Shown piece after piece: positions 10,792-58,124 of a DNA stretch of 64,000 nt. Origin of the DNA: Trypanosoma brucei (taxonomy: Eukaryota); assembly GCA_000002445.1 (NCBI GenBank), contig CP000071.1, positions 1,216,001 to 1,280,000 on the forward strand. Direction: 5' to 3'. The position numbers and the translations under genes are program-made. Numbering within the stretch: the stretch's first letter is position 1; each line of letters begins with the position of its first letter. The notes beneath the pieces are model-generated. The model did no database searches. It saw only the letters and a program-made list of their open reading frames with translations, and had not been told where the DNA came from.

Positions 10792-11485
10792 CGTTCAGCG
10801 GTGTGACGCACCCAGGAATATGGCGAATAAGTATGGATATTATATATAAGAAGAATGAGCGTCACTGCTTACTTCACTACACCCAACCGTCCTCCTCTCC
10901 CTTTTCTATATAGAAATGAAAAAGAAATATATACTCTAGGGTAATATGTCTGTTGTTTTTCTCTGTGCACCCACGCGTTGCAAGAAATCGCGATATATCA
11001 ATTTGCCTTTTGGATTTGCCAACGTCCCCACCTCCAACTTTCTGTGTCTACCCTTACAAGCGAGTACAACAAGGCTTGTACACGATAACTTCCCGCAACC
11101 ACGCCTGCCATGAAGGTGAAAGAAAGAAAAAATGACAGAGAGCAAAGAGTAAAGGGACATGTGACATACACACGCAAAAAGAAATATCGTCTTGCACATG
11201 TGTGTGCTCATTTTGGAATTTAGCAGTGCAATCCATGCTTCCTTTTTTTTTGTTCGGCTGAGTTGTTGTGCAGGTCCTGCATTATGATAATAATTATGTT
11301 TAATCGAGCATGAAGATCCGTGATAACAGAAATAGGGCGATAGAAGGTGAGGTTTGAGCAGTGATTGACGAAACCGTGCTTTTGCATAGGTGGCACTTAG
11401 GTCCCCGAAGCGCGACAAACTTATTCGCCTCTTCGTCGTCAAAATCCCACCCCGGACGCCGCTGCTTCCGCCTTGACGTACTTCC

Positions 11486-14059
11486 TTACGATTCGTCCAG
11501 CTTGGCATACTGTATTACAAGATGTCTCCCATACAAATGCGTAGATCCGAGTGTTTGCTTTGCACGGCGAGCCTCCTCCTCCGTGAGAAATTCCACAAAA
11601 GCAAAGCCACGATGATTGTTCTCACGATGCGAGGAAAACTGGTGGCTTTTGCGGGGGAGCCGTACACTACGTACCTCACTAACGGCGGTGAATAAGTCGC
11701 GAATGTCACGTTCAGTAGCTTCAAAAGGAACGTTCTTTACGACGAGCTTTAGACCATCGCATCCCGGGGGCACATTAGAATCACTACTAATGTTTCCGTT
11801 GCTTTGACCGGCGCCCCTTCTCGAAATGACGTTGAAAACCTTCGCCACACCGTCTTCACCATCCCCGTCTCCATTACCGGCAGCTCGTGACGCCGGGGAA
11901 GCGCCGTTAATCGCAGCGGTTGTTTGCTTGCTCACAACACAAGCCAGTGTTCTTCCCGCCATAGTTCTTCCGTTCAGCCGCTGCTGGACGTAGGACATAG
12001 TGCTTGCATCGCGGAGGGTAAGAAATGCTCGTCCTTTTCCTTGTTCCAATTCCAATCGCTCCACAAACTTATCAGGTGCCCTCGCCAATCGCGGGCAAGA
12101 GTCCAACAGGAAAGTGTTGAAGTCTTCCTTCGTGGAATTAAAAGGGATGTTAGTTATAAATAGCGTAAAGTGTGGAGTACCCGCCGCCACGCCAACATGG
12201 TTGCCATCCTCGTCCACGTCATCGACCCTGCCATTCCCGCTGTGGGAAGGGACCCGGTCGTTGCAATCACCTCCGTCTTCTGCGGTAGAGAGAGAACCGA
12301 TAGGAGCCCACTCTAAAAATAACGGTGCATTTTTGAAGAGTTTATACGACAGGCGCTGGAAGGCAACTCGTGCATCCTGTTGATGCACGTAGCGGAACAG
12401 TGCGAAGGCCCCTGCCGATGGAAATGCTGTAGCTTCCAACGTCCCATATTTCAAGAACATCTTACTGAGCTGCGCCGCATATGCCGGATCGCCCAACGTA
12501 ACATTCTTCACTAAAATGGTAGTATTACTACGCGCTTTCAAAAGGTTTTCGCGTGCACTTTCCAGCAGACTAAAGTCAATTCCCTCGTCGCCCAGCACTT
12601 CCTTTATCTCTGATGTAAGATACGCCTCAGCTATTGCCGCCCGCACTGCCGCACCACGGGCGTCAACCGAAACAACAGCGTCCGCGGTTACTCCAAGTCG
12701 TTTTGCCACAGTTTCCACTGCCGTGTGACTGTTCATATACGTTGAGCTCCATGCCACTGGTGCAACACCGGATGTCCCCTCTCCCTCTTTGCGCCTGTCC
12801 TTCGCTTTCTGCCGTTTGAATTCGCTATTCCCAGCCAACCCTCCTGCGGTCTCCTCGCTCCTCTTGGCGTATGGATCCTCAGTGGCGGCTGAAACTCGCA
12901 AGAGGCGACCCATAAAGATGGCCCCTTGGCAACGGGAAAGGGCATTAACCGCATCTTCCACCCGGGCAAACTTTACGAAGGCAGCACCCTTGCTCTGTTT
13001 GGTGTCACGAGTGAGTGGTATATGAACAGCCTCCACAGGTCCGACGTGGGAAGAGGCGAACTGCTTCACATCTTCTTCGGTCGCAATAAACGGTATGTTA
13101 CCTAAGCGGATGCGGCGACTTTCCCGCACAACCTCCTCCTGGTCGTCTCTGGGAGAGGGGTTCTCAGGACATAAAAGTTGATCCTCCTCACTCTCGTCAC
13201 CTTTTTCTAGCACTTCTCCCTTTCTTTTGTCACTACCGCCACCCCCCGATGCGTCATTGCTACTGCAGGCTTGGTTAGCCGACTCCTTTGCTAAGGAAGA
13301 CAAGAAATCCATGTCACTTATTTCCCCAAGTTTCTTCTGTCGTTCAAGTGCTTTTTCCAACTCAATGTTGGGATCTTCCTGTTCCTTCTTTCCCTGTGGC
13401 TCGGCATCGCCATTCCCGCCGTCGCAATCTCCGGTTGGGGATGCTTCCGCGTCTGCGGAAAGCTCCGGCACTAGTACTTCAGTGGCCCATGTTGGTCCTG
13501 TTGTTGCTCGTATCCTTTCAGTAACGAACTCTTCTCGCCGCTTCCTCTTCTTGGCATCTTCCTCACTCTCTCCAGCACCATCCGCATTTGGAGCCTTTCC
13601 ATCTTTTGTTCCCAATTCCACATCCCTTGCACGTTTCTCGCCTATGCCCTCATATTTTATTGTTGAACTTTGATTATTCTCCTCTTGTTCTTCCTTTCCC
13701 AACTTTTTCCGCATGTTTGTCGTAACACCCACATCAGCAAGGCCCTTCGCCACATGCACCTGCAACTTGGCCTCACCAAAGTACGTTCCATCCAGGTGCC
13801 GCACGATGAAGTGGCCGCTTGCAGCGTTTCGAAATCCAATGAAAGCCATTCGGATGACGCCCTTCTCTGAAGCATCTGGCGCAGGTGATTTCCGCGGGGT
13901 TCCCCTTCCCCGTGCACCCGGTCGTGGGGCACGCTTGAGAATAACACAATCCGTTATTTCGATATGAGGCCCATCGGGGGGAAGCGACTTGAGCAGGTTG
14001 CTTCGAAGCTGATCCTCCGTACAGTTGCGTGGTAGGTTCAAAATACGTACGCGAGACAT
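11486..14059 (-). CDS. Multiple-RRM RNA-binding protein, MRD1/RBM19-like pre-rRNA processing factor (857 aa)
   Basis: N-terminus MSRVRILNLPRNCTEDQLRSNL matches the first RRM of MRD1-family proteins (MSRxIVKNLP...). RNP1-like octamers appear several times (KGAAFVKF, RGFAFVEF, GRAFLTLR, RMAFIGF). Lys/Glu-rich linkers sit between the domains. Confidence 0.65.
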   Translation of the reverse strand: MSRVRILNLPRNCTEDQLRSNLLKSLPPDGPHIEITDCVILKRAPRPGARGRGTPRKSPAPDASEKGVIRMAFIGFRNAASGHFIVRHLDGTYFGEAKLQVHVAKGLADVGVTTNMRKKLGKEEQEENNQSSTIKYEGIGEKRARDVELGTKDGKAPNADGAGESEEDAKKRKRREEFVTERIRATTGPTWATEVLVPELSADAEASPTGDCDGGNGDAEPQGKKEQEDPNIELEKALERQKKLGEISDMDFLSSLAKESANQACSSNDASGGGGSDKRKGEVLEKGDESEEDQLLCPENPSPRDDQEEVVRESRRIRLGNIPFIATEEDVKQFASSHVGPVEAVHIPLTRDTKQSKGAAFVKFARVEDAVNALSRCQGAIFMGRLLRVSAATEDPYAKRSEETAGGLAGNSEFKRQKAKDRRKEGEGTSGVAPVAWSSTYMNSHTAVETVAKRLGVTADAVVSVDARGAAVRAAIAEAYLTSEIKEVLGDEGIDFSLLESARENLLKARSNTTILVKNVTLGDPAYAAQLSKMFLKYGTLEATAFPSAGAFALFRYVHQQDARVAFQRLSYKLFKNAPLFLEWAPIGSLSTAEDGGDCNDRVPSHSGNGRVDDVDEDGNHVGVAAGTPHFTLFITNIPFNSTKEDFNTFLLDSCPRLARAPDKFVERLELEQGKGRAFLTLRDASTMSYVQQRLNGRTMAGRTLACVVSKQTTAAINGASPASRAAGNGDGDGEDGVAKVFNVISRRGAGQSNGNISSDSNVPPGCDGLKLVVKNVPFEATERDIRDLFTAVSEVRSVRLPRKSHQFSSHRENNHRGFAFVEFLTEEEARRAKQTLGSTHLYGRHLVIQYAKLDES

Positions 14060-15380: not shown

Positions 15381-16139
15381 TCAAACAACTGACAAATCCT
15401 TCCGTTTTCTCTTTCCCAGAGGTGCGTTTGTATTCTCACGACGGTAAAATTGCTGAAGCAGTACCACCGCCTCCTCCGCCCTATAACCACCGCAGCTTTC
15501 ATATCCAATTAGTGCAGCATCCTCACCACTACAACCCTTGTAAGAGTTGTGTACGGAAAGGACGGTACCATTCCCCCCAAAACGGGGGTTAGTGCAACCG
15601 AAGTAGACCTTCCGCACACGGTTGTATAAAAGCATTGCAGCACACATAATACAGGGCTCCACCACTACATACAGAACATAATCCGCAAGGTCCTGTGAAA
15701 CTGCTCCGCAGTTGCCTCCTCCTCCTATATTTTCACTCGTCCCTGCTGTCGCTTGTCGCAGGAGTTCCTCCACTGCAACAAACTCTGCGTGGGCCAACGC
15801 ATGTCCCTTCCTGTTGGTAGCGTTACGTCCTCGTGCCACAATTAACTTTTGTAAGGCCAAATCATCTCCTGCTTGTGCCTGAGCAGCGGTGGAGGAATCC
15901 GCTTTTACCAACACACATCCAACCGGTACTTCACCTTCTTCTAATGCACATGTTGCTTCCTTTAGAGCAGCCTGCATAAAGACATCACAATACACAACAC
16001 TTTCATTCGCCTCCGCTGTACCTTTTAAATTTGTGTCCTTGCCTGTATCTTGCACCATTGGTGCTAAAGAATAAGTGAATAATAATAATAATAATAATTG
16101 AGCAACACAATCAATAAAAGAGAAAGAGGTGGGAACCAA
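15381..16139 (-). CDS. ADAT2: tRNA-specific adenosine deaminase, ADAT2/TadA-like (cytidine-deaminase fold); the probable real start is Met28 at 16058
   Basis: The zinc-binding deaminase motifs HAEFVAVEE (H-A-E) and PCIMCAAML (PCxxC) are both present. The Lys/Arg-rich C-terminal tail (RRENTNAPLGKRKRKDLSVV) is what I recall of trypanosome ADAT2. The annotated N-terminal 27 aa include LLLLLL encoded by the (AAT)7 microsatellite at about 16076-16098, so the downstream ATG (16056-16058, MVQDTGKD...) is the more likely start. Confidence 0.7.
   Translation of the reverse strand: MVPTSFSFIDCVAQLLLLLLFTYSLAPMVQDTGKDTNLKGTAEANESVVYCDVFMQAALKEATCALEEGEVPVGCVLVKADSSTAAQAQAGDDLALQKLIVARGRNATNRKGHALAHAEFVAVEELLRQATAGTSENIGGGGNCGAVSQDLADYVLYVVVEPCIMCAAMLLYNRVRKVYFGCTNPRFGGNGTVLSVHNSYKGCSGEDAALIGYESCGGYRAEEAVVLLQQFYRRENTNAPLGKRKRKDLSVV
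16076..16098. repeat. (AAT)7 microsatellite at the 5' end of the ADAT2 ORF
   Basis: aataataataataataataat read directly; it is in frame as a Leu run on the minus strand. Confidence 0.9.
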
Positions 16140-16215
16140 ATTAAAAAAAAAAAGTGTAGAGCGAGTTGAAAGAAGATTGGCATCTCACAATAACAACCGT
16201 GTGTGTGTGTATTTG
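16140..16215 (-). promoter_or_regulatory. Probable polypyrimidine tract and SL acceptor region upstream of ADAT2
   Basis: The plus-strand A11 run (ttaaaaaaaaaaagtg) and purine-rich flank make a T-run and pyrimidine tract on the minus strand immediately 5' of the ORF. Confidence 0.3.
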
Positions 16216-19200
16216 AACTAGGAAAGACGTGTAGATGCCGAGCACAAACCATCCCTGCTAAGATCCAACAAAGTTTGACAGCGTATTGGTTGACGGGAAT
16301 ATAACTTTGTTGAGTTACAAGAGGGCGAATCGTAGATGCGTAAAAGTACGTGTGAAGGGAGGAAGTTTATAAATAAATAAATTATTGTATTTATAAAATT
16401 GTTCCGAGAGGGAGGCTACGAAGGTAGGTAAAAAAGCAAACGCATCAAGTAATATCAACTGCACCATTGTTCCACATCCAAGCTGTCCTTTTTGCTTCCT
16501 CCTTCCATGCATCTGTTCACTTCTTTCATTATTTAATTTTTTTTAGTATATAAATAAACATACGAAAAAATGTTCTGTCCTCCGTTCCGAATGTTTTCTT
16601 TTTTTTTTTTTCATGCGCTTCATCTTTCAGTTGCTCCTTGCCTCCCTTTTCCTTCCCGAGTTTTTTTTTCCTTTTCCTTTTTTTCTTTTTTAACTTTCCT
16701 TCGGTTCTGCTGCAGCGCCAATAGTACAATTACGGGAGACGTACTCTGCAGGCTTCACCGCCATCTCCGTTGAATCACCCACAGTAAAAATTGAAGGTAA
16801 TCTATGAGTAGCGGAGACGTTAACGGGGGGAAAAAAAGAAAAAAAAACAGTAGTCTACAAGGAAGAGTTTAATGCTTTGATGAAGTATACAAATATCCTC
16901 GAGGTTAGGTTTGTTGTAGAGTCTTCTTTCCATCGTCATGATTCCAAAAGTATCACTCTCTTTTCTTTTCTTTTTTTTCTCTGCTCTCCCTTGGGTTTTA
17001 CCGGGTGTGAGAAAAAAGATGGATGAATCACTCAAACAAATGAATGACGGACGAATGGCTACTGCCACACTTCCTTTTCAACCACCACAACACTTGAAGG
17101 GATAATCAAAGAAGTCAAACAAATGCACAAACACAAACACAAGCACATAAACGAAACAATAACAACACAACTATGAACGTATTCGAAATGTAATGCATCG
17201 ACATGACTGATTGCAAAAGGGATATTCGGTTCAAAGGACTGGAAATGACAAGGAGAGTCAACAAACAAATAACCGATCGAAAAATTAAGAAGAAAAGAAA
17301 AAAAAGACAGGAAAACAACGCCATATACCGAACTGTTTTGTGTCTAAAAGAGGGGAAACCATAATATATATATATATATATATATATGTTCTCGTCGTAC
17401 ACTTTACATTCTTTTTTTGTTTTCATTTTATTTCACTATACGCTGCTTTCTTTTGTCACTCCTTCACTCCTAATCCAGCTCCCACACGCAGTAGTGTTGC
17501 AGCGCCGTGCATACATAAATAAATAAATATATATATAAATAAATAAATATATATATATATATATATATTAATATATAAATGTACGTAAACTTCTGGTGCT
17601 GCTGCTTCTTTTTCTTTTTTCTTATTCTTTCGTCCAAGTGTCCTACATAACATAAACAAGGAAAAAAAAAGGAGGGTAAAAGTATGGAGTGAAATTAATA
17701 TAAATACACACAAAAATAAGGAAAGGAGGAGTCGGGGGGAAGGGAAAGGAGGAAAACAAAAAAAAAAAAAAGAAAAGAAAAAGCATTACGATATACTAAA
17801 TCTTTCTCTCTTTAGATACTTCCTACCCTTCACATCTGTACACGCAAGGACATATATGTTCGACACATACATAAATCAAAATAAATAAAAAAAAACAAAA
17901 AAAAACAGAACAGATCAGTCGCTCACAGATTGTTATCATCTGCATTATGTGCTTCGACACTAACACGTTTTCAGTGCTTCCCAAACTGGAAAAGAAACGT
18001 GTTAGTGTCTCTCTTTTTTTTTTTTAAAAAAAAATGTACAATAAAGTAAACACAATAATAACAGCAGTAACAGTGAACAGCGCAATATATGATGAGGGAA
18101 GGAAGGAGGATAAGGAGACATTATCTAAGCATTGTTATTAACACAGTAGTGGAGGCGCTGAAATAAAACTGTATAAAGCAACTATACGCATCATAAATAT
18201 TGAAACATGTTTCAGAAAGAGTTATGTGATTTTTTTGTTTTTTGTTTTTTTAAACGTCTCGTTTCTTCATTATTTCACCACACCTTTCAAATACACACAT
18301 GCACACATGCCCGTATCATCATACATCACAGGAGCGTGTACGACTGTGTCTTGACGGAGTTATTTTCTCCGCATTTCTCATCTTCTCGTTCCACCAACAA
18401 AAAAGTTTCACTCCTTCCTGTGTTATTTATTTATTTACTTATTTTCCTCCTCCATCCATCAGCATTCCACTGTGCAAGAGGAGAACAGACGTCTAATAAT
18501 GGATAAAGAAAGGGGAAGTAAATATAAACAAAACAAACAAACATTATTTGATTATGTTGACGCAAGGTAAACGAGGAGAAAACAACCGAAGGTGTGAGGA
18601 CCGGAAATAACTCTTGACATTATGTTGCTTAAAAATCTGCAACTCCACACGCTTCATATAATGCACTTATATAAATAAATATATAAATATATATTGTGTG
18701 CATACACGCATGCATGCATTTCCCTCGTCTATTTGTTCTTCTTTTTTTCTTTTCGAATTTTTAATATCATTTTTTTATTTTATTTTTTTTTAAAAATTTC
18801 TCCCACCTCCTCAGCTCCGCTTCGCAAGCGACGAAATTATGATATAATAACATTTACTCCCCAGTAAAAATGTTATATGTTTGACGGTTTGCATGACCTG
18901 CACCCGGGCGAAAGGAGCGGTACGCCACCGGCTGGCACGTGGGCGCTTCGGCTTTTGGTTCCATCACACCGCGGCGAACACCAGCCGGTGCAATTTGTTT
19001 TTTTATCGGTTCAGTTGGTTGTTTTTCTGCTTCTTCCTCCTTTTCTTCTGCTCTGTAATCGACACCACCTCCCTGCTCCACACCATCATCCATTTCAATT
19101 ACGACGCCGTAATATTCATCTTGTGCTTCAACATCTTGAGAGGGATGATGTTCTGCAGTGTTATTATTAACTCCATAATGTTGGAAGGAATGATCTGCTG

Positions 19201-22200
19201 CCTCTTCTTCATCTAATTCAGCTCCGTCTTCATCCTCCGTGTGGCAATACTGTTGCTGTTGATGTTGATATTGATATTGATGTTGATGTTTTTGATTACA
19301 CACCCCTCGTATGGGTTCATTATTTTCCTGCTCACCTTTTCTGTGGTCGAATATTTTACCTCCAGCGTAGGCTCCTTGTACGCATGTTGTGTCCCATTTA
19401 AGATCTCCCTGTCCCATCAATTCCTTCATGGTATTTCCACCATTATGTTCACGGTAAAGTCGGCTCTGACGGACACACGGACGCTCGCCGAGTACATTTC
19501 CCTGATTTTGAGTGAGTGAAGGACCTCCCAAATGCCTATGGCCGCTCATTTGTTCCTCTTCACCTTCTTTTTCTTCTTTTTCGTTTTTTTTTCTCCTCCT
19601 TAACTTTTTTACTTTTACTCTTCTTCAACTATCTTTACTTTGGTGACGGTGATGATATATATATATATATTTAAAAAAATGACACTGAAGTGATCTAGTG
19701 GTGAAAGTACTTTTTTTTTTTTTTGGGGGGGGGTGCGTGTGTGCGTGTTTGTTTGGGAATATTTCTAACCTGTACGTTCGCTGACTGTCTTAATATATAT
19801 ATATATATTTTCAGTTCAGTGTTGTGTTGTGCTGCACTACGCTTCCTTTTTTATTTTATTTTATATGCGCAGTTTTCGCTCTCTTCTCGGGTTTGATGGT
19901 GAATATGTCTACTGTTGCAAGAGCTTCTGTTGTCGTCTGTTGTTGTGTGAATCTTGTGCTAGTAATACTAAAAAAAAAATTAATATTATTTCCTCTCCTG
20001 TTTCCTTTCCTTTCCCTTTTTTTAAAAACAAACTTTTTCTTCGTTTCTTTCTGCCGTTGTTACTGTAATCGTTACTGCTTCTCTCCTGTTTTTTTTGTTC
20101 TGAACGTAACTCAACAAAAAAAAAAGAATGGGAAAGAATGAGAATAAGAACATACACGTGAAGAAAAAAAAAGAAAATAAAACAAAACAGCAACACATCA
20201 AAGCAAAGCCAAGTAAAGAGAGGAAGCGTTAATTATTTTTGAACATACACAAAAATTGAGAAGGAGAAGAAGGGGGAAGGGGGGAATCAAACAAACAAAA
20301 GAAAAAGAAAAGGGAGACAAGGAGGCAGGAAAAAAAAAAGGAACGGCGCCTAATTTTTAAAAAAAAACAACAAAATAACGAATATGACGTTGTTGTTAAG
20401 ATTAGATATTATTAAATATTATTAGTTATAATAATAATATTATTATTATTATTCTTCTTTTTCCTTTTTGATGAAACTTGACAGCGTGTGAGTGCATGTA
20501 GCATCAGATGACGAAACGGAGTTAAAGCTCCAATGAGCAAAAATAAATGAAGAGGGTAAACGAAGGGAACGAGGGAACTAAAAATATAAAGTGAGAACAA
20601 AAACAAAAACGAAACAAAAAAAAGCGAAACGAACAAACACACGCATACACAGGTAAAATAAATTAAAACGAAACAAAACAAAAAAGGGAGAGAAGAAAAA
20701 GAAAGAGAAGAAAAAGAAAGAGAAGAAGGGAAAAGTGTCAGACAGTCACACCACCAAATAGTCAATACGTGAATAAATGTACATAAATGTATAAATATAC
20801 GTGCAGAGATATGTAACGTGCGGCAAATTTAATTGTAAAGTAAAATGTATAAATATGTAAATGTACGTATGCATACGCGTAAATATGAATATATATATAT
20901 ATATGAATATCCTTTCAAATATATGTGGATGTTTTTTTTTGTTTTGCTTTTTGTTATATTTACTTTCACTACTTAATCACGTATGCCCAACGACGAAACA
21001 CTTGCTGCTGGGCAACAGGGGAGGGGGGGGGGAAAAAAACGGTAGCGCGTCACTTGAACTTATTTGATGATGGTGTTCTTCTTTTTCTTTTCTCTTCATA
21101 TTTACTTCCGTTAATTACCCTCTCAGGGTTTCTGCTTTCTTTTTTCTTTCTCGAATTTTCCTTCTTTTTTTTTTGTTGAATTCATACTATTTTCTTTGTT
21201 TGTTTCCTTTACCCCCTCGTGTTTTTTCTTTATTTCTTTATTTTTTTTTAAAAAAAGAAAAAAAACACAACTCTGCTAGATTATTATTATTATTACTGTT
21301 AATTACCATTGTCACACGTGTGTGTGTGTTTGTGTGTTTGTTTTCTTTTTTTCTTTTTCTTTCCTTTCCTTTGTTTATTTTCTCTTTTGAATGGACTTTC
21401 AGCCCATACGAATTAGAAGAGGTGAATAAATCACACCTTCAGCGTAAGTGTTAAATAAAAATAAATAACAAGAGAGATGAATGAGCGAGCTGAAAAGAGG
21501 GAAAAAGTTATTTTACTTTTTTACTTCATTTTGAGTGCGTGTATGCATATGTTTGCTCTTTCTGTTTGTAAGATCATATAAATTGTATACCCATTGTCAT
21601 GAGTTCTAATTCACATAACTTCACTTATTCTCATTTCACAACACATATTCATAAAACATATAAACATATAAATATATAAATATAAATAAATATATAAATA
21701 TGAATAAATAAATATATATTTTTTTCTTTTTTGAGAGAGGATATTTGAGGGGCTGCCATCTCTATAAACACTGAACATATAAATACATAAATTTTACTCT
21801 TCATAACATGAGGCGGAGCGCAACGACGTGAAAACAAATAAATAAATAAATTCATATGTACGGCGTGTTGGGGGGTAACAAACAATTCAAACAAACAAAT
21901 CGTAACGATTATTATAAATGTTATTTTAATAACAATAATAATAATGATACATACGTGTACATATATTTTTTTATGTTTATGTATATATGCACATGTGCCG
22001 TTTCTAGAAATAAGGTACAACACAAAACACACAAAAATAAGAAACCCAACGTCTTTTTTTTTGGTAGTATTTCTACTATTGTGCTTTAATCTTTTCTTTT
22101 TTAAAAAAAAAACCAAAAAAAAAAACACACACACACACAACAAAACATCCCCTACTTATTTATTTTCATTTTATATCCTTCCGCCCATTTCCATCTTTTT

Positions 22201-23234
22201 CTTTCTTTTTTTCTTTCCTTCTTTTTTTTTTTTCCTTTTTCCTTATTTAAAGTTGATATCTGTGCCCCGTTACTCTTCTATTTCTCTTTTTCTTTCCCTA
22301 ATGCAGATGAGGACAAGCAAAAGAGAAAACAAAGACATGCTCACAGATATAATCCTTTTTCTTTTTTCCTTTTCTTTTCCTTATTTAATTTTTCTTTCTT
22401 AAATAAATAAATATATATATATATTTATTTATTTATGTTTTTCTTTTATTTTTTCACTTTCCTTTTCGAAAAATATAAATGTGGGACCGACCATTCAAAC
22501 AAACAAATATTACCATAAAACAAAATCATTGGTATCGGATAATTATTATTTACCACTTGTGTGTGACCGTGGCAGTAGTAACTATTTACTGTTAATATAA
22601 AACCAAACACTAAACATAACAGAAGGGTGGAGAGGGGAGGGGGAGGGAGGAGAGAGGGGGAAGAAAAAAAAAAGAAAAAAGAAGGGAGCAAAAACATATA
22701 CACACAAACAAACAAAAACACCAAAAAGAGAGAGAGAGAAAAAAAGAAAAAAAAAGAAAAGAAAAGAAAAGAAAAGGAAAAAGTTCTGACGTGTCCACCT
22801 CCACCTCCATCTCCATCTCCACCCCATACATTTACACACATATTATAAATAAATGCAAATAAATATAAATATTAAATAAAATATTACCGTATCCCCTGCA
22901 GCTTATACGATGTAAGCAAGGAGTTGGTAAATTTATTACAAGATATAATCAATTGCTTCAGTCATTTCGCTCTTCATGAATACATTCGCCCGCAAGCCTC
23001 ACTGCTTTTGATACTAAAGACTTAAGAGCATAACAAAAATAAAAATAAAAACAACAAAAATGAAGTCATGTCATCATCATCTTATTCTTTCTTTTAAAGC
23101 TTTCTTTCTTTTTGTTTGTTTGTTTGTTTGTGTTTTTTTTTCCCCTTCCCACCAGTTATATCTCCTGCGGTGTACGGGAGATGACGTAATATATAAATCG
23201 TTAAGTCAAATATAACTGGTTTCAGGAACGGTGC

Positions 23235-23259
23235 GTGTGTGTGTGTGTGTGTGTGTGTG
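23235..23259. repeat. (GT)12 microsatellite
   Basis: gtgtgtgtgtgtgtgtgtgtgtgtg read directly. Confidence 0.9.
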
Positions 23260-24149
23260 GGAGGGGGAACAAAATATATACAAAAGCACGTAAGCAATAG
23301 CGGAATAAGGAGAAACTCACACGCACATTTCATCAATACACTAAAGGCACATATTTTAAAATTAAATAAATACAAGAAGAATGGATGATAAACAAAACAT
23401 ATGAATGGAAAGAGGAAATGAAAAGAATAAAAACAAAAAAGAAAAGAACGAAATTCAGTTTTTATTTTTTTTCCCCCTTCTGCATACATTCTTCGCTCAT
23501 TGGTGATGATTGCATCCATCACAACTTCTTCAGAGGCATTTATATTCCGCTTTATTTAATGCTATTTGCGAAATTATTTGTGCTTTACGAATGCCGCGAC
23601 AGGAAAAAAAAAAGAAAAAGATTACGACACTCCACCTTGTTTTTTTTTGCTCACAAGGAGCAGAAATTATGTTGTGACAAATATGATGGATATACCCTCC
23701 TCTGAAAGTGTGAAGTACACAAATATAAGAGAAACAAGAAAAAAAAGGGGGGGAACAAAAAAAAAACTAAACTAAAACTGAAAAAAAAGAAAAAAAACAC
23801 ACACAAACACACAAACACACAAACACATAAACACACAAACAATAGGCCAAAAAAAAAACACATATATATTGGCATTGATATGACCAAATATATTGTTAGC
23901 CTAAAGGCAAGGAAGTAATTGAAAGAACCAAATAAAAAAAGATAACGTATGAAAATAAATACAAAAAAAATGGGGGAAATATAAGCAGTCAAATACACAA
24001 ACCCGTTTCACAGGAAGGGGAAACGAAACAAAATGGAATGAAACGAAAGAAACTTCAGCAAAAGGGGAATATATCGTTGATTTGTAGATTATTTCATTTT
24101 TTCCCTTCCTTATTTAAAAGAAAAATACATCTCTGTGTAATATAATGTA

Positions 24150-24175
24150 ATATATATATATATATATATATATAT
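24150..24175. repeat. (TA)13 microsatellite
   Basis: Read directly. Confidence 0.9.
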
Positions 24176-27076
24176 TACAAAAGTTGTGGCGTTCTAATGC
24201 TTTGCTTTCACATCCTTCTCAAATATATAAATATTAACCATTAGCTGATCAACTGTTTTAATTATTTGTTCGTATTATATTTTTGTTCTTCATATAATAC
24301 ACCGTATTTTCATTCATTTATCATGTCATATGCGATGAAATGCCCAAAATATCATGGGGAAAAAATGAAAAATAAAAAAGAAAAGTGATATGAATAAATA
24401 ATTATATACCGTAAAAAAAAAAAAAAGACAAAAACAAAGAAAAAAAAGGAGAAGGTAAAGAAGAGAAGAGGAAAGAGGAAAAAAAAACAAAAACAGCAAC
24501 AATAACAACAGCAAAAGCGGGAGAGGAAACATAAGCATTATTTTCCCACACTAAATAATTTGACGCCGCGAGAAGGCACCAAAAAGCAACATCATCATGA
24601 AGATCAGCTAAATTAAAAAAAAAAACAATACAAAAAACAACGCCACCACCCACCCCCATCAGAAAAAAATGTGTGAATGATATCGTGAAGCGCGGAGACT
24701 CGCACAAGAAAAAAAAAAACGACCCAACAAAAAAAAAAAATGGAAAAACACTCACACGAGCAGTAAAAAAAAAAATTAAAATAAAAAGAAGGTCAATAAT
24801 AAACAAAAGAAAGGATAGAAAAAGGAAAACCAACCATATGTAAAATGAAGTGCGTAAAGAAAAAAGGAAAAAGAAGAAACCCCGTCAATATGAATATAGA
24901 AAACCAAACAACGTAAAAAGGAAGAAACTGAGAGGCGAAACAATATCACTATAAAACAAAACCAAAACAAAACAAAAGATAATAAAACGGAAGAAATGAT
25001 TGAAAGGAACTGGGCGATCTGCATTAAAATGACGGTAGGAAGTCGCTCACACTTCAATTATTTAACTCGAAATTCAATACCCCACGGCCTTTTGTATTTT
25101 TATTTTTCTTCCCTCCCCCCTGTTCTACAAAGCGGAGGCAACACAAACACAAATACAAACACGAATACAATAAAATAAAATAATAATCAAAGGAAAAACA
25201 AAAGCAAGAAGAAGAAAAGATGAAGAAAGGAAAAGACAGCGAGAGAGAAAGAGAGGTAAAGAGAAGGATAGGAAAAATGTTGGGGACACCTTTCAGGCAC
25301 ACACAAAAACAAAACAAAAGCAAGAAAGGACAGAGCAGCAGAAAGGGAAATGAGAAACAAAACATATTTTTTTTCTTTTAAAAAAAAAGCCTGCCCGACC
25401 TTCCTTACCGTATTCCGTTTTTATTAACTTTTTTTAAAATTTATTTTCGATTTATATTTCTTTATTTTCTTCCTCCTCCTCCTCCTCCTTGTTTTCACAC
25501 GTCTCCAACAACAAAACTGAGGTGGCGGGGGATTTGAAAAATTGCACGTGTTCAAAACCGAAAAGCGAAGATCCGGTAAAATCAGAACCCAAAAACTAAG
25601 CAACAAAAAAAAGGGAGGGATTAAAAAAAGAAAAAAAATTGTTATTTTGAAATGGGCGTGAAATGATCGAACACTCAAGGGGAACACTTTGGAATGGAAA
25701 AAAAAAAAGAAAAGAAAAAGAAGTGATTGCTCTAAAGAAGCACAAGATGGTGTCAAAATGACCTTTCAAATCCCCTTCCGTTCCCATTTCCAACATAATA
25801 ATAACAACACATGCGGACGCGACAAAAAAAAGGAAAGACAAAAAACAATAATAAAGAAACCAACAACAAAAAGAACTAAAAAGTAATTTTCATATTGTTA
25901 TTTCATTTCCCCCAAATGTGCCGTGTTTGTCAATACAACTGCCCCTTCTCTCTGCACTGCCTCATCACTCATTCTTCATTTCTTCTTCTTTGTATTATAT
26001 TATATATATATATATATATATTTTCTTTGATGTCAGTTCCCCATTGACCCCAACCCTATAAAAATATATTTGTTTGCTCCCTTCTTTTTCTTTTCTTTTG
26101 TATTTAACTTCGCTCTCACACCAGAGGGTGTGATATGGATATGGAAAGGTAAGACAAACAAACAAGAAAGAGGACCAAGAGGAAACAAAAAGATGAAACC
26201 CCCAATAATAATAATAGTGGTGATGATGGTAGTAGTAATAAAAATAATAACGGCATATAACTTATATTTCGTTATTACTGTTATTATCACTACTACTACC
26301 ACTATTATTTTCCTTTTCTTTTTTACTTGTCTTCCCACACATACATATATACACACACAAAGACAGCCACTTCTGTCATACCCTCCCTTTCTCTTTCATC
26401 TCTGCAACTTCCTGCAAGAAATCACAGAAAAAAAAGAAGAAAAGCACGAAAGAGACAATTTAATAGTAGTAATAATATTTGTTACTGTTTTTTTTTTTAA
26501 AAAAAAGAAAACTCAACTAAGTGAATGAAAGAGTCGTTTTTTTCTTCCTCTTTTTATTTTTTTTTTGAACTCCGCCAAGCGACAAACTTCAACACGGGTT
26601 GTTTCGATGGGGGAAAGTGGGGAAAGGGTAAAAAAACTGATGGTCCAAAAAAAGTAACCCAAGTAAGAAAACGCACAAAAAAAAATCACGAAAAAGAAAT
26701 ATGCTCCGTGCCATGTGGGCTAGGGATATTTTTCCTCTTTTTTTTTTCTTCCTTTGACTCGTGTCTCTCTTCTTTTATTTTTTCTTGGTTTTTGGTTTAT
26801 TATTTTTTTGTTTTGGTGCATTTTGAATCATATTTCTTATTGCACCAGTAGCACCTCTCTCTTATTTCACATCCTGCTTTCCTCTCCATTTTCAAAAAAA
26901 AAAATCTACCCACAGGAAAGCAAGAATAAATGAGTGAATGAACAAACAAACAAACAAACATATATATATATATATATATGTTGTTCGCCCTTATGCCACT
27001 GGGCCCACACCCATGTTCCGTAACTTCTCAGTTTCTCTTGTTTTTTTTCTTTCATTTTAAGCCTTATCTTTTGCAT

Positions 27077-28960
27077 TCACCCCTTATGTTGCGTTACCAC
27101 GGTGGCCTCATGTACTTCTTCGAGCCATCGGCGTACAAATGTGTGTATTTCCCGTCGCTGCTCTCCCGCCTCATCGGATCCCCTCCGCCAGAAATGAGGA
27201 GAAGCGACCTCATCACTCCCTTGATTGCGGGTCCACATATGCTGAGAGCAACCACCATGAGACATACGTGCCGTTTCCCGAGTTACTGTTGGGTAATTGC
27301 CAAACACTAATGGAGCGTCGTGGGCTGGAACTTGGTTAGAAATATCATACGCCGCCCGAGCCTCCTTGATGTGTTTCGATACAGCGAGTGAGTTTTCTTG
27401 CTTTGCTTTTAACTTCTCAGCATAAACAAACTCCTCGAATGCATATGATGCAGGGGGTTTTGCATTACCGATACGAGCAAAACTCACGTGTTTGGAATCA
27501 GTAGTAGAAGATGATGGCAGTAATTGCAGTGGTGCTTCCTCCTTATGAGGCATTGTGAGAAACTCAACAGGAAATGCCGGATCTGCTTCGCCACCATCAG
27601 TTACCACCGTTACCTCCCGCTCCCCGTCCGAATCTCCATCTGTTGAGGAGCAGCGGTTTATTAACGTTAGGAAACGTTGCACGTTTTCGGACGTTTCGGG
27701 TGGTTTTAAGCCCTTCATACCCATTCCGAAGCAACAAGAGCTGGTAGTAACGATGGAAAGTGCATCAAACACTTTGTAATCTTGATGGTAATCATCATCC
27801 AACCCTACGTAAAACTCGGGACGGTACTCATCCGATCCATCTCTCGCATCACAGTGCAAAGGGCGTTCATACAAGCAATAAGTGCATTCCGCGGTCCTCC
27901 TTCTACGAGGAGAGTTAACATGCTTCAAAGGAATCTCTTGCGCTTCTCCACCCCCGTACCCGCTGTCCTCCAAACAAATAAGACGTGAGCTTTGCAAAAG
28001 CGTGCCTTCCTTTATTGTGTTGGTAGTGCCCTGCAACGACTCAATAGTATTTGGCACTACCGTGGGGATGACTACTTCGCTACCAATTCCAATATATTGT
28101 TTAGATGCATCCTCATCACCATACTTACGATTTGTGTCGTTGGATCCTAAAGTTATGTACCCAACTGTTCGACTGTGGCACGTTTCAGAATTCATCATCT
28201 GCTCGTGCGTGCTATACAGAGTTGGATCTGTTACACTCCCCAATCCGTCCTGAAGTGGCCCGAGTTGTGGGATGGAAGTGGAGAAATCCATATCACCGTG
28301 GGTAGTGCTATTCACTACACTTTCAAATTGTGGGAAAAATGAGGTACACGGCGGTGCTCTATACATTAACAGTCCCTGGGGTACATTTGTTTGCTCCTGG
28401 CGAATATTTGCTCTTGCGGTGGTTACCGCTGAGTGCCATCCATGGTGAACCGTAAGGTGCAGACTGTGGTTTCCCTGTCGATGGTGAATAACACTAGAGA
28501 AATGACCCTCTCCCTGTGGCTGAAGTTGTTTACACTCTCTTAATCCCTGAGTATTTGTTTTTTGGGGCACTCGCTCAGCTGCTGTCCTTGCTGCAGACCA
28601 ATCCCAACGTATGCTGGGACTCTGCTTACAAGGGCTGTCGGTGTCACCGACGAAGTTTGGGAGTTGAGACCACGAAAAAGAAGATTGCTGCATTTGTTGC
28701 ATGATGGGTAGGGTGCTGCTTCGTACGGTTGTTCCTTGTGTTAGTTCCAACATATCCACTGGAAACAACGCGCTGCTGCTAGCTTCCTTATCGGGTCCCT
28801 TCGGTTCCAACATTTCTTCTTTTTTTGTTTTAGATTTGTTATTACTCTCCTCTACCATTTTGTCACCGCTAGAGTGGCGATGCGGACCTGGCCAGTGGGA
28901 GCGTGTAGGGAAACGGCACATGAAGTGCTGCTCAACCAACGATGCAAATAGATCTAGCAT
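27077..28960 (-). CDS. Hypothetical protein (627 aa), Ser/Thr/Gln-rich with no recognisable domain; isolated between two long ORF-free tracts
   Basis: ORF 27077..28960(-). Composition is complex and non-repetitive, unlike the surrounding low-complexity DNA. It runs in the same direction as the unit. I found no catalytic or RNA-binding motif by eye. Confidence 0.6.
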   Translation of the reverse strand: MLDLFASLVEQHFMCRFPTRSHWPGPHRHSSGDKMVEESNNKSKTKKEEMLEPKGPDKEASSSALFPVDMLELTQGTTVRSSTLPIMQQMQQSSFSWSQLPNFVGDTDSPCKQSPSIRWDWSAARTAAERVPQKTNTQGLRECKQLQPQGEGHFSSVIHHRQGNHSLHLTVHHGWHSAVTTARANIRQEQTNVPQGLLMYRAPPCTSFFPQFESVVNSTTHGDMDFSTSIPQLGPLQDGLGSVTDPTLYSTHEQMMNSETCHSRTVGYITLGSNDTNRKYGDEDASKQYIGIGSEVVIPTVVPNTIESLQGTTNTIKEGTLLQSSRLICLEDSGYGGGEAQEIPLKHVNSPRRRRTAECTYCLYERPLHCDARDGSDEYRPEFYVGLDDDYHQDYKVFDALSIVTTSSCCFGMGMKGLKPPETSENVQRFLTLINRCSSTDGDSDGEREVTVVTDGGEADPAFPVEFLTMPHKEEAPLQLLPSSSTTDSKHVSFARIGNAKPPASYAFEEFVYAEKLKAKQENSLAVSKHIKEARAAYDISNQVPAHDAPLVFGNYPTVTRETARMSHGGCSQHMWTRNQGSDEVASPHFWRRGSDEAGEQRREIHTFVRRWLEEVHEATVVTQHKG

Positions 28961-29473
28961 GGATATGTAATTATATATGATTATATATATATTTTTTTTT
29001 CTTTTTTTTCTTTATATATATATATATACGTATATGTATTTATATATACTATGTGAAAAAATATGTTGTCGTATCCCTCACCCCCTCTCTTTACTAAAAG
29101 AAAAAAAAAGGTGGGTACCAATTCGTCCCTTCGAAATCAAATGGGGTAAAACAAGCAAACAAACAAAAAAGAAGAGGCAGAACAGAGAGTGCGTAATAAC
29201 AGGTTTCGATGCAAAGAGTATACAAGTGGCAAAACCTCAATTTTACTCCCCCCCAAAAAAAAAAATAATAATTCCAAATTGGAGATTCCACTGAAACAAC
29301 GACACCAAAAATAATCTTGGGGCGCTCATTCCGTGCACCACATCTGAAAATATGACATTTATATATGCACTTATATTTGTAAGAAATTGAGTGAATTTGA
29401 AAGGATGTTATAGGGTAGAAGATTACCTACCAGAATTATTTCAGGTGCCAAACCCACCTTAATCATTCCTCTT

Positions 29474-29504
<31 letters not shown>

Positions 29505-32500: not shown

Positions 32501-32876
32501 ACGAGGTGAAGAAAGGGTGGAACAGGATTTTTTTTTAAAAAAAGAAGGAAGTCAGGCCGTCAGAACAAGTCAGGGATGCGGCAGAGGTGTCATATATTAC
32601 ACTGCTATGAGGTTCATTATTTAATTATAGTGTCTACTTCATTTCCCTGTACACACAAACCTAACCTCAACGTACCCAACTAACCAAACACCACTGGAGA
32701 TCACCGTAAACAAAAAAAAAGGTACTGGAAAGCAACAGCGCCCCCTGCAAATTCGCCAGACGAAAAAAAAAAGAGAAGCACAGAACTTCAATGACATCAC
32801 AATGAACATTTTCCCTCTAATCTATTTCCTTTTGCCCACTCGGACCCTTGCTTTTCCTTTTTCTCCTCTTTAATGC
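28961..32876. other. Second ORF-free AT-rich low-complexity tract (about 3.9 kb)
   Basis: Only low-complexity short ORFs. It contains the palindromic (AAT)n(ATT)n tract at 29475-29526 and long A/T homopolymers. Confidence 0.75.
29475..29526. repeat. Palindromic trinucleotide tract (AAT)n·(ATT)n, potential hairpin or cruciform
   Basis: aataataataataatactaataataataa|ttattattattattagtattaaaat. The right arm approximates the reverse complement of the left, centred near 29503/29504. Confidence 0.7.
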
Positions 32877-56379: not shown

Positions 56380-56754
56380 TTAGTGGCCACCGCCGCCAAC
56401 TATACGAAAGATTTGGTTCGAGATGTACCACTGACTTCCTTCCTGGGCCAAATGAAAAACATCATTGAACTTCAGAGGATGGCTCTCACCCTTCAGCAGT
56501 ACTTCACCATTCACCACGACAAGGACACCACCGCTGAGTGATGGGTGACAATCGATATCTTCTGTCTTAAAAAGTGCTTCATCAAAGCTTAGGTTGGCGA
56601 AACGGGCCATAATATTCTCACCCCCTTGGATTTGCTCACCAACCCAAGTCATGAGGGAAGTTGGGCGATACACACCAGCAAGTTGCGTGCGGTTCTTTGA
56701 GAAGAACTCGTAGTACTGACGGATGAATCCCGTTCCAATCTCTTGAAAGGACAT
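56380..56754 (-). CDS. NTF2: Nuclear transport factor 2 (NTF2), 124 aa
   Basis: MSFQEIGTGFIRQYYEFFSKNRTQLAGVYRPTSLMTWVGEQIQGGENIMARFANLSF... aligns with the NTF2 sequence I recall (..FVQHYYQLFDNDRTQLGAIY...[25 protein letters not shown]...). The size is right. Confidence 0.8.
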   Translation of the reverse strand: MSFQEIGTGFIRQYYEFFSKNRTQLAGVYRPTSLMTWVGEQIQGGENIMARFANLSFDEALFKTEDIDCHPSLSGGVLVVVNGEVLLKGESHPLKFNDVFHLAQEGSQWYISNQIFRIVGGGGH

Positions 56755-58079: not shown

Positions 58080-58096
58080 GCTTCCTTCCTTCCCCG

Positions 58097-58124
58097 AATA
58101 ATAATAATAATTATTATTATAATT
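58097..58124. repeat. Palindromic (AAT)4·(ATT)3 tract
   Basis: aataataataataa|ttattattataatt read directly, immediately upstream (on the minus strand) of the NOP16-like ATG at 58077-58079. Confidence 0.7.

What the first reader, a model, noticed from the sequence alone, without database searches (positions are those of the whole stretch)
16140..27076. An 11-kb ORF-free, AT-rich, low-complexity tract inside a unidirectional polycistron
Every flanking gene is on the minus strand, so this is not a strand-switch region. Yet about 11 kb carries no credible ORF in any frame. The ORF track shows only poly-F/L/K junk peptides. The tract is a mosaic of homopolymers, (TA)n, (GT)n, (CACACAAA)n, (TCC)n and G-runs at roughly 25-30% GC, against about 50% GC in the neighbouring genes. 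Trypanosome intergenic regions are normally 0.3-2 kb, so this is an outlier. It could be a very long 3'UTR of the 627-aa gene at 27077-28960 plus a long 5'UTR of ADAT2. It could hold one or more unannotated long non-coding RNAs or processed small RNAs. It could also be a decayed repeat or assembly-problem region.
Basis: seen in the sequence. Interest (0 to 1): 0.6.

Follow-up and report, generated by a model that had tools for sequence, protein, structure and literature searches.

The report
Overlooked gene plus long trypanosome 3'UTRs
The supposed 11-kb gene-free tract on Trypanosoma brucei chromosome 8 holds an annotated, conserved 231-aa gene, and the rest is already annotated as two long, low-complexity 3' untranslated regions (6.8 kb and 2.7 kb), so it is an extreme case of something ordinary and known.

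Summary
The window is T. brucei TREU927 chromosome 8, Tb927_08_v5.1:1,216,001-1,280,000. The tract is AT-rich (GC 33%, not 25-30%), rich in microsatellites, and lies in a minus-strand polycistron. It is not ORF-free. The minus-strand ORF at 18854-19549 (231 aa, GC 47%) is Tb927.8.4190. It is identical to XP_847250.1, conserved across kinetoplastids, and syntenic between ADAT2 and the 627-aa gene in T. vivax, T. cruzi, T. melophagium and Leishmania.

The remainder is already annotated from nanopore direct-RNA, spliced-leader and poly(A) data (Trenaman 2024). 20258-27076 is the 6,819-nt 3'UTR of Tb927.8.4200, and 16160-18853 is the 2,694-nt 3'UTR of Tb927.8.4190. Polypyrimidine tract and AG acceptor positions fit both annotated ends.

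I found no hidden gene, Rfam RNA, tRNA or dispersed repeat. An independent T. equiperdum assembly reproduces the tract colinearly at 98.3% identity, so it is not a mis-assembly.

The 6.8-kb UTR carries 21 internal polypyrimidine tracts. Tb927.8.4200 mRNA rises about 7-fold on DRBD18 depletion. This fits the known class of DRBD18-controlled long-3'UTR mRNAs such as RBP10 (7.3 kb). Verdict: already known, low interest.

The parts
15381..16058 (-). ADAT2 CDS (Tb927.8.4180), the downstream flank. The real start is the ATG at 16058; the TTG at 16139 listed by the ORF tool over-extends it.
   Evidence: Pfam cytidine/dCMP deaminase domain. A 225-aa gene call in T. equiperdum. ATG seen in the sequence. 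Tb927.8.4180 is named in the ADAT2/3 structure papers.
16059..16159 (-). Processing region between the poly(A) site of Tb927.8.4190 and the ADAT2 start. A pyrimidine-rich stretch on the sense strand spans about 16152-16066, the first AG is at 16065/16064, and the ATG follows 6 nt later.
   Evidence: Read directly in the sequence. The annotated 3'UTR end is at 16160. Splice-site use is inferred, not shown.
16160..18853 (-). Annotated 3'UTR of Tb927.8.4190 (2,694 nt; GC 0.348).
   Evidence: The UTR feature Tb927_08_v5.1:1232160-1234853 (-) in Trenaman 2024 Supplementary Data 1 abuts the stop codon at 18854 with an offset of 1,216,000. The same offset fits four further annotated 3'UTRs, five in all (Tb927.8.4190.4200.4210.4220.4260).
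18854..19549 (-). It is a kinetoplastid-conserved protein with an invariant N-terminal block of about 70 aa and a C-terminal RPGAG-ANRQTYNIFTGE motif.
   Evidence: ORF listed. Homologues found in 40 clusters, from T. congolense to Leishmania, Phytomonas and Angomonas. Exact match to XP_847250.1/AAZ13184.1/Q57W16. Published cloning primers for Tb927.8.4190 map to both ORF ends. There are 0 substitutions in 696 nt against T. equiperdum, compared with 0.9% in the flanking UTRs.
19550..20110 (-). Predicted 5'UTR of Tb927.8.4190 (about 560 nt, purine-rich on the sense strand).
   Evidence: Inferred from the first AG (20111/20110) after the polypyrimidine tract. This was not checked against spliced-leader reads.
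20111..20257 (-). Inter-mRNA processing region. A U-rich pyrimidine-rich stretch on the sense strand spans 20185-20113 (longest uninterrupted run 20177-20160). It lies 73-145 nt downstream of the annotated poly(A) end at 20258 and is followed by the AG acceptor.
   Evidence: Sequence and polypyrimidine tract scan. The spacing matches the published rule of a tract 80-140 nt downstream of the poly(A) site and 10-40 nt upstream of the splice site.
20258..27076 (-). Annotated 3'UTR of Tb927.8.4200 (6,819 nt; GC 0.314). It is low-complexity and carries 21 internal sense-strand polypyrimidine tracts of at least 15 nt, including 61 nt at 22783-22723 and 56 nt at 20735-20680.
   Evidence: UTR feature Tb927_08_v5.1:1236258-1243076 (-). 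Composition and polypyrimidine tracts. No conserved coding sequence, Rfam family or repeat family. Colinear in T. equiperdum OVI with 0.91% mismatches and 25 small indels.
27077..28960 (-). CDS of Tb927.8.4200 (627 aa), the upstream flank. It is a hypothetical protein and a candidate post-transcriptional activator.
   Evidence: Exact match to XP_847251.1/Q57W15. Published primers map to both ORF ends. It ranks 10th among 'increase expression' hits in the tethering screen. Its mRNA is up 2.87 log2 on DRBD18 RNAi.

Best explanation
The tract is not one feature. Read in the direction of transcription (minus strand), it contains:
- the 6.8-kb 3'UTR of Tb927.8.4200 (27076 down to 20258);
- a 150-nt processing region with a polypyrimidine tract and AG acceptor;
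- a 5'UTR of about 560 nt, then the 231-aa CDS of Tb927.8.4190 (19549-18854);
- the 2.7-kb 3'UTR of Tb927.8.4190 (18853-16160);
- a 100-nt polypyrimidine tract and acceptor region just upstream of the ADAT2 start.

The AT-rich, homopolymer- and microsatellite-rich sequence is the normal texture of trypanosome UTRs. Pol II transcribes the whole unit polycistronically. Mature mRNAs are cut out by coupled trans-splicing and polyadenylation, directed by polypyrimidine tracts.

The 6.8-kb UTR most likely works as a post-transcriptional control platform for Tb927.8.4200. It carries many internal polypyrimidine tracts that could serve as cryptic processing sites. In procyclic forms DRBD18 would mask these sites, so the distal poly(A) site is used and destabilising elements are retained. 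When DRBD18 is lost, shorter and more stable mRNAs accumulate.

Shown: the gene, the UTR annotation, the polypyrimidine tract layout and the DRBD18 response. Inferred: that the DRBD18 response acts through poly(A)-site choice at this particular locus.
For: Identity and coordinates:
- The 231-aa and 627-aa ORFs exactly match consecutive TREU927 proteins XP_847250.1 and XP_847251.1.
- Published cloning primers for Tb927.8.4190 and Tb927.8.4200 map to both ORF ends.
- Five annotated 3'UTR features abut window stop codons with one offset, 1,216,000.

The gene is real:
- Homologues occur across Kinetoplastea (E = 1e-59 for T. congolense, down to Leishmania, Phytomonas and Angomonas).
- Synteny is conserved: upstream gene, this gene, ADAT2, RRM protein, HEAT protein in T. 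vivax, T. cruzi, T. melophagium and T. rangeli; in Leishmania the conserved part is upstream gene, this gene, ADAT2, followed by amino-acid transporter genes.
- There are 0/696 substitutions against T. equiperdum, versus 0.9% in the flanks.

UTR annotation:
- UTR features are listed.
- Trenaman 2024 revised 4,703 of the 3'UTR annotations using nanopore direct RNA plus spliced-leader and poly(A) reads; whether these two were among them is not stated.

Anatomy and exclusions:
- Polypyrimidine tracts and AG acceptors sit at the published distances from both annotated UTR ends.
- No other conserved coding sequence was found by blastn or by six-frame tblastn against syntenic loci.

Regulation:
- Tb927.8.4200 mRNA is destabilised by DRBD18.
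- It rises 2.87 log2 (FDR 2e-32) on DRBD18 RNAi in procyclic forms. It is listed beside DRBD12 and Tb927.1.1500, which also have very long UTRs.
- There are 21 internal polypyrimidine tracts.
- DRBD18 is known to bind long, polypyrimidine-tract-rich 3'UTRs and to promote distal poly(A) sites.
Against: - I could not inspect RNA-seq, spliced-leader or poly(A) reads myself. The UTR ends rest on a published annotation table.
- I cannot tell whether these two UTRs were among the 4,703 that were manually revised.
- The predicted 560-nt 5'UTR of Tb927.8.4190 is long for T. brucei (median 82 nt), so an alternative acceptor may be used.
- The locus is not named in the main text of either DRBD18 processing paper, and their supplementary tables were not readable here. 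Alternative polyadenylation at this gene is therefore an inference.
- In the reporter assay one internal fragment (window 24248-25017) gave no reads in the positive screen. Only the CDS-proximal 1.4 kb was enriched. The function of most of the UTR is untested.
Confidence: 0.9

Rival explanations
1. The 6.8-kb stretch is not, or not only, a single 3'UTR. Internal polypyrimidine tracts would drive trans-splicing and polyadenylation, producing one or more independent non-coding transcripts (lncRNAs). Tb927.8.4200 mRNA would then mostly end proximally.
For: - There are 21 sense-strand polypyrimidine tracts of at least 15 nt, each followed by an AG.
- T. brucei has 1,428 described lncRNAs that are spliced-leader-capped, polyadenylated and mostly intergenic.
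- Many of these overlap UTRs or alternate with UTR isoforms.
- The neighbouring spacer has such an lncRNA, KS17gene_6341a.
- DRBD18 loss raises Tb927.8.4200 mRNA.
Against: - The current annotation, which drew on nanopore direct-RNA data (these two UTRs may or may not have been among those revised), assigns the whole stretch to one 3'UTR.
- No lncRNA flanked by Tb927.8.4200 and Tb927.8.4190 appears in the tables I could read. Those tables list only regulated lncRNAs and were truncated.
- There is no cross-species sequence conservation and no Rfam hit.
Confidence: 0.1
2. The 7.5-kb spacer hides a degraded or frameshifted protein-coding gene, or a small unannotated one.
For: - T. b. gambiense accession numbers (CBH13448 and CBH13451) imply two extra CDS calls between the orthologues.
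- T. cruzi and T. rangeli carry an extra 455/448-aa gene nearby.
Against: - Six-frame stop-to-stop ORFs of at least 25 aa, searched by tblastn against the syntenic loci of T. vivax, T. cruzi and Leishmania, hit only the Tb927.8.4190 CDS.
- The T. cruzi 455-aa protein has no tblastn match anywhere in the window.
- No 300-nt window outside the CDS exceeds GC 0.40.
- All ORFs there encode poly-F/L/K low-complexity peptides.
- The substitution and indel rates are those of non-coding DNA.
Confidence: 0.03
3. The tract is an assembly artefact or the relic of a repeat array or transposable element.
For: - The sequence is low-complexity.
- The T. equiperdum contig ends at the (AT)10 repeat at 26960-26979.
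Against: - The independent T. equiperdum OVI assembly is colinear over 16144-26979 at 98.3% identity. The length is essentially the same, and the only indels are microsatellite-sized.
- T. vivax has a 6.3-kb spacer at the same position.
- With low-complexity masking, the tract has no match elsewhere in itself or the window beyond one 33-nt hit. Without masking there are only simple-repeat matches of at most 80 nt.
- Tandem Repeats Finder finds only short arrays.
Confidence: 0.01

Closest known systems
RBP10 (Tb927.8.2780) 7.3-kb 3'UTR and DRBD12 (Tb927.7.5380) long-3'UTR mRNA of T. brucei
   Same: - Multi-kb 3'UTR (6.8 kb here) in a Pol II polycistron.
- Riddled with low-complexity sequence and internal polypyrimidine tracts.
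- The mRNA encodes a candidate regulator of gene expression.
- mRNA abundance responds strongly to DRBD18 depletion.
   Different: - For RBP10 and DRBD12, shortened isoforms after DRBD18 RNAi and regulatory sub-regions were shown by northern blots and reporters.
- For Tb927.8.4200 only the abundance change and one reporter-positive proximal fragment are documented.
- Tb927.8.4200 has no recognisable RNA-binding domain.
Generic trypanosomatid inter-CDS region (3'UTR, polypyrimidine tract, AG acceptor, 5'UTR)
   Same: - Same architecture and same composition. [quoted passage not shown]
- Poly(A) end upstream of a polypyrimidine tract, 73-145 nt at the Tb927.8.4200 end and only a few nt at the Tb927.8.4190 end.
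   Different: Length only: 6,819 nt and 2,694 nt, against a genome mean of 622 nt and a median of 388 nt.
T. brucei lncRNAs embedded in or alternating with UTRs (KS17gene_* set; grumpy)
   Same: AT-rich, non-coding, sense-strand, flanked by polypyrimidine tract and AG signals. One such lncRNA (KS17gene_6341a) lies in the adjacent spacer.
   Different: No discrete transcript is documented inside this tract. No snoRNA or other structured RNA was detected.

Membership tests
Protein-coding gene Tb927.8.4190 (kinetoplastid-conserved hypothetical protein) | Intact sense-strand ORF whose product matches the annotated protein | tested here: met
   The ATG-to-stop ORF at 18854-19549(-) is identical to XP_847250.1/Q57W16. 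Published primers map to both ends.
Protein-coding gene Tb927.8.4190 (kinetoplastid-conserved hypothetical protein) | Orthologues in other species at the syntenic position, with protein-level conservation | tested here: met
   40 homologous clusters and 42 invariant columns in a 15-species alignment. The same gene order is found in T. vivax, T. cruzi, Leishmania, T. melophagium and T. rangeli.
Protein-coding gene Tb927.8.4190 (kinetoplastid-conserved hypothetical protein) | Purifying selection relative to the flanks | tested here: met
   0/696 substitutions and 0 indels against T. equiperdum, compared with 0.90-0.91% and 3.7 indels per kb in the flanking UTRs. The T. b. gambiense allele differs by an in-frame 4-aa deletion.
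Trypanosomatid mRNA 3'UTR | Starts at the stop codon of a sense-strand CDS and contains no conserved coding sequence | tested here: met
   Both UTR features abut stop codons. There are no blastn or tblastn hits outside the CDS.
Trypanosomatid mRNA 3'UTR | Ends roughly 80-140 nt upstream of an active polypyrimidine tract, followed within 10-40 nt by the AG acceptor of the next gene | tested here: met
   The annotated end at 20258 is followed by a polypyrimidine tract at 20185-20113 and an AG at 20111. The annotated end at 16160 is followed by a tract at 16152-16066 and an AG at 16065. Use of these sites is inferred.
Trypanosomatid mRNA 3'UTR | Continuous sense transcript coverage from the CDS to a poly(A) cluster | not testable with these tools
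   This rests on the published nanopore, spliced-leader and poly(A)-informed annotation. I did not view the reads.
DRBD18-controlled long-3'UTR mRNAs | Long 3'UTR containing internal polypyrimidine tracts | tested here: met
   6,819 nt with 21 polypyrimidine tracts of at least 15 nt.
DRBD18-controlled long-3'UTR mRNAs | mRNA abundance changes on DRBD18 depletion | tested here: met
   From the literature: destabilised by DRBD18, and logFC +2.87 with FDR 2e-32 in procyclic DRBD18 RNAi.
DRBD18-controlled long-3'UTR mRNAs | Shift to proximal poly(A) sites on DRBD18 depletion, and DRBD18 binding to the mRNA | not testable with these tools
   The supplementary tables of the two processing papers are not held. 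The locus is not named in their main text.
Strand-switch, transcription start or termination region | Flanking genes on opposite strands (or a tRNA or other Pol III gene at a unit boundary) | tested here: not met
   All genes are on the minus strand, and there are no tRNAs.
Known structured ncRNA locus (snoRNA cluster and similar) | A match to an Rfam family at its gathering score | tested here: not met
   0 hits at gathering score in the window. Only sub-threshold hits driven by simple repeats appear in the E-value scan. Rfam coverage of trypanosome snoRNAs is limited.
T. brucei lncRNA (spliced-leader-capped, polyadenylated, over 200 nt, non-coding) | A discrete transcript with its own spliced-leader and poly(A) ends inside the tract | not testable with these tools
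   The Guegan 2022 tables are not held. The partial DRBD3-paper tables list none flanked by Tb927.8.4200 and Tb927.8.4190.

The most novel reading that the evidence does not exclude
The 6.8-kb UTR may be a salivarian-specific expansion. The spacer is 7.5 kb in T. brucei and 6.3 kb in T. vivax, against 1.2 kb in T. cruzi. It could act as a developmental switch. Regulated use of its many internal polypyrimidine tracts would both tune the level of the candidate post-transcriptional activator Tb927.8.4200 and release independently spliced-leader-capped, polyadenylated non-coding fragments with functions of their own.
Probability: 0.12. Interest if true: 0.35.

Novelty: already known. Interest (0 to 1): 0.08.

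Why it matters
It matters mainly as a correction. The "gene desert" contains an annotated, conserved gene, and the rest is annotated UTR, so nothing new needs explaining.

What remains of value is modest. Tb927.8.4200 encodes a top hit of a genome-wide tethering screen for activators of expression. It carries one of the longest 3'UTRs in the genome and is among the mRNAs most strongly repressed by DRBD18. It would therefore be a good additional test case for 3'UTR-length control in trypanosomes, a mechanism already described for RBP10 and DRBD12.

Tried and rejected
- Rfam at gathering score (whole window) and at E-value threshold (tract): nothing beyond sub-threshold miRNA-like hits driven by simple repeats.
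- tRNA and tmRNA scan: none.
- Tandem Repeats Finder: only short microsatellites.
- Self and within-window blastn: no dispersed or decayed repeat family.
- blastn and six-frame tblastn of the tract against syntenic loci of T. vivax, T. cruzi and Leishmania: only the Tb927.8.4190 CDS is conserved.
- Relic of the T. cruzi 455-aa gene in the window: none.
- Pfam, strict and lax, for Tb927.8.4190 and Tb927.8.4200: nothing except poly-Q noise.
- PDB sequence search for both proteins: nothing.
- AlphaFold2 on a 39-sequence alignment of the Tb927.8.4190 family: mean pLDDT 52 and mostly disordered, so I ran no fold search.
- Homologue search for the 627-aa protein: the word-based candidate stage saturated and returned only the T. 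brucei-group cluster.
- T. congolense locus: not on record.
- lncRNA catalogue tables (Guegan 2022) and DRBD18 processing tables: supplements not held. KS17gene IDs neighbouring 6341a are not in any searchable text. The nanopore lncRNA paper's supplement does not mention these genes.

Full report
**1. Observation**

- The interval 16140-27076 is AT-rich. Its mean GC is 0.332 and 300-nt windows range from 0.25 to 0.40. Neighbouring coding sequences are 0.47-0.49.
- It is dense in short simple repeats:
  - 64 A or T homopolymers of at least 8 nt;
  - ten (TA)n loci;
  - (GT)12 at 23235;
  - (ACACACAA)5 at 23799-23841;
  - (TCC)6 at 25471;
  - two G-runs.
- All gene-sized ORFs in the window are on the minus strand, so this is the interior of a polycistron.
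- The composition, repeat and strand parts of the observation therefore hold. The stated GC of 25-30% is a little low.

**2. The central claim fails**

In fact a minus-strand ATG-to-stop ORF of 231 codons lies at 18854-19549. It coincides with the only GC island in the tract (0.45-0.49) and its peptide is not low-complexity junk.
- A homology search returned 40 clusters, from T. congolense (54% identity, E = 1e-59) through T. vivax, T. cruzi, T. rangeli, T. grayi, Leishmania, Leptomonas, Phytomonas and Angomonas.
- The alignment shows an almost invariant N-terminal block of about 70 residues and a C-terminal RPGAG-ANRQTYNIFTGE motif, separated by a variable low-complexity linker.
- Exact-sequence look-up shows the ORF product is the annotated T. 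brucei TREU927 protein XP_847250.1/AAZ13184.1/Q57W16. The 627-aa flank is the next accession, XP_847251.1/AAZ13185.1.
- Cloning primers published for Tb927.8.4190 and Tb927.8.4200 (Erben 2014, Table S6) map exactly to the starts and stops of the two ORFs. Gene identities are therefore direct, not inferred.
- Against T. equiperdum OVI the CDS has 0/696 substitutions. The flanking non-coding DNA has 0.9% substitutions and 3.7 indels per kb.

**3. What the rest is**

- Supplementary Data 1 of Trenaman et al. 2024 (PMC11405848) lists UTR features on Tb927_08_v5.1, minus strand:
  - Tb927.8.4190: 1232160-1234853;
  - Tb927.8.4200: 1236258-1243076;
  - Tb927.8.4210: 1246067-1248876;
  - Tb927.8.4220: 1250383-1251194;
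  - Tb927.8.4260: 1264995-1266034.
- With a single offset of 1,216,000, the upper end of each feature lands one base below a window stop codon (18854, 27077, 32877, 35195, 50035). The window is therefore Tb927_08_v5.1:1,216,001-1,280,000.
- In window coordinates, 16160-18853 is the 2,694-nt 3'UTR of Tb927.8.4190 and 20258-27076 is the 6,819-nt 3'UTR of Tb927.8.4200.
- Trenaman et al. revised or added 4,703 of the 3'UTR annotations on nanopore direct-RNA reads plus reads carrying spliced-leader or poly(A) sequence. Whether these two UTRs were among those revised is not stated.
- The genome-wide 3'UTR mean is 622 nt and the median is 388 nt. The 5'UTR median is 82 nt.

**4. The sequence anatomy fits**

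- On the sense (minus) strand, the annotated end at 20258 is followed by a U-rich pyrimidine-rich stretch at 20185-20113 (longest uninterrupted run 20177-20160) and the first AG at 20111/20110.
- This matches the published rule: a polypyrimidine tract 80-140 nt downstream of the poly(A) site and 10-40 nt upstream of the acceptor.
- It predicts a purine-rich 5'UTR of about 560 nt for Tb927.8.4190. That is long for T. brucei and is an inference.
- The annotated end at 16160 is followed by a polypyrimidine tract at 16152-16066 and an AG at 16065. The ADAT2 ATG is at 16058, not at the TTG at 16139 that the ORF tool lists.

**5. Rivals tested**

- *Hidden gene.* blastn of the tract, and tblastn of all 295 stop-to-stop ORFs of at least 25 aa, against the syntenic loci of T. 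vivax, T. cruzi and Leishmania hit only the Tb927.8.4190 CDS.
- *Structured RNAs.* There were no Rfam matches at gathering score and no tRNAs. The E-value scan gave only sub-threshold hits driven by simple repeats.
- *Repeat relic.* With low-complexity masking, the tract has no match to itself or the window beyond one 33-nt hit. Unmasked hits are simple repeats of at most 80 nt.
- *Mis-assembly.* The independent T. equiperdum OVI contig CZPT02001116.1 is colinear over 16144-26979 at 98.3% identity, with only microsatellite-scale indels. T. vivax also has a 6.3-kb gene-free spacer at the same place.

**6. Comparative picture**

- Gene order is conserved: upstream gene, Tb927.8.4190 orthologue, ADAT2, RRM protein, HEAT protein.
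- The Tb927.8.4190-to-ADAT2 spacer is 1.9-2.8 kb in every species examined.
- The upstream spacer varies:
  - T. brucei: 7.5 kb;
  - T. vivax: 6.3 kb;
  - T. melophagium: 3.1 kb;
  - Leishmania: 2.3 kb;
  - T. cruzi: 1.2 kb.
- The 627-aa protein is a fast-evolving orthologue of the T. vivax 625-aa and T. cruzi 645-aa proteins. Only its N-terminus and a mid-region motif are conserved.

**7. Likely function of the long UTR**

- Multi-kb 3'UTRs are a known, if rare, class in T. brucei. RBP10 has a 7.3-kb UTR with several independent regulatory regions. DRBD12 mRNA is 8.4 kb. Tb927.1.1500 has a 7.9-kb UTR feature.
- The Tb927.8.4200 UTR carries 21 sense-strand polypyrimidine tracts of at least 15 nt.
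- Its mRNA is destabilised by DRBD18. It is the 19th most up-regulated transcript (log2FC 2.87, FDR 2e-32) on DRBD18 RNAi in procyclic forms, listed beside DRBD12 and Tb927.1.1500.
- DRBD18 binds long, polypyrimidine-tract-rich 3'UTRs. It blocks internal processing sites and promotes distal poly(A) sites, so that destabilising elements are retained.
- By inference, the same mechanism operates here.
- The encoded protein ranks 10th among 'increase expression' hits in a genome-wide tethering screen, between PABP1 and ZC3H36. This fits the pattern that regulators carry long regulatory UTRs.
- In the reporter assay, the CDS-proximal 1.4 kb of the UTR was enriched in the positive screen (log2FC 3.4). 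An internal fragment gave no reads.

**8. What stays open**

- I could not view reads or the lncRNA catalogues.
- Internal processing that yields shorter isoforms or lncRNA-like fragments is plausible. The adjacent spacer does carry the lncRNA KS17gene_6341a, and many T. brucei lncRNAs are UTR-embedded.
- That would be a variation within a known phenomenon.

**9. Verdict**

The finding is explained by existing annotation: one overlooked gene and two long 3'UTRs. Novelty: already known. Interest: low.

Noticed in passing
window 28961-32876: This is a second long ORF-free, AT-rich spacer (3.9 kb). [quoted passage not shown] The DRBD3 paper places an lncRNA, KS17gene_6341a, between Tb927.8.4210 and Tb927.8.4200.
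   Followed up: partly
window 55436-60523: This is a third long inter-CDS spacer (5.1 kb, GC down to 0.33 at 58-60 kb), between the ORFs 53510-55435 and 60524-62560. It is probably another long UTR.
   Followed up: no
L004 5029-6396 (T. cruzi); L007 8062-9408 (T. rangeli): T. cruzi and T. rangeli carry an extra 455/448-aa gene (61% identical to each other, faint MTHFR hit) downstream of the WD40 gene: in T. cruzi it sits between the WD40 gene and the Tb927.8.4200 orthologue, in T. rangeli directly upstream of the Tb927.8.4190 orthologue. It has no tblastn trace in the T. brucei window, and no match in the T. vivax and T. melophagium loci fetched. T. rangeli seems to lack the Tb927.8.4200 orthologue at this position.
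   Followed up: partly
window 18854-19549 (-): The Tb927.8.4190 family has an unusual two-part conservation. About 70 N-terminal residues have 18 or more invariant positions across Kinetoplastea, and there is a C-terminal NRQTYNIFTGE motif. Between them lies a hypervariable Q/E-rich linker, which is expanded in the T. brucei group. There is no Pfam or PDB match, and AlphaFold2 predicts mostly disorder. The literature reports it as a Pam16 co-IP partner, as transiently down-regulated in slender-to-stumpy differentiation, and as cloned in the Erben 2014 tethering study (its primers are listed there; screen result not seen).
   Followed up: partly
window 19550-27076 (T. b. gambiense orthologous region): In T. 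b. gambiense DAL972 the two orthologues are CBH13448 and CBH13451. This implies that two further CDSs were annotated between them. They are probably spurious low-complexity ORFs of the kind listed.
   Followed up: no
window 16058-16139 (-): The mechanical ORF for ADAT2 starts at a TTG at 16139. The real ATG is at 16058, only 6 nt after the first AG following the polypyrimidine tract. This predicts an exceptionally short 5'UTR.
   Followed up: partly
window 26960-26979; L001 position 1: The T. equiperdum OVI contig ends exactly at the (AT)10 microsatellite about 100 nt downstream of the Tb927.8.4200 stop codon. It is an assembly break at a simple repeat, not a structural difference.
   Followed up: yes
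window 10936-11508 (-): A 190-aa ATG ORF with no Pfam hit overlaps the start of the 857-aa RRM-protein ORF by 23 nt. I did not check whether it is a real gene or a 5' extension artefact.
   Followed up: no
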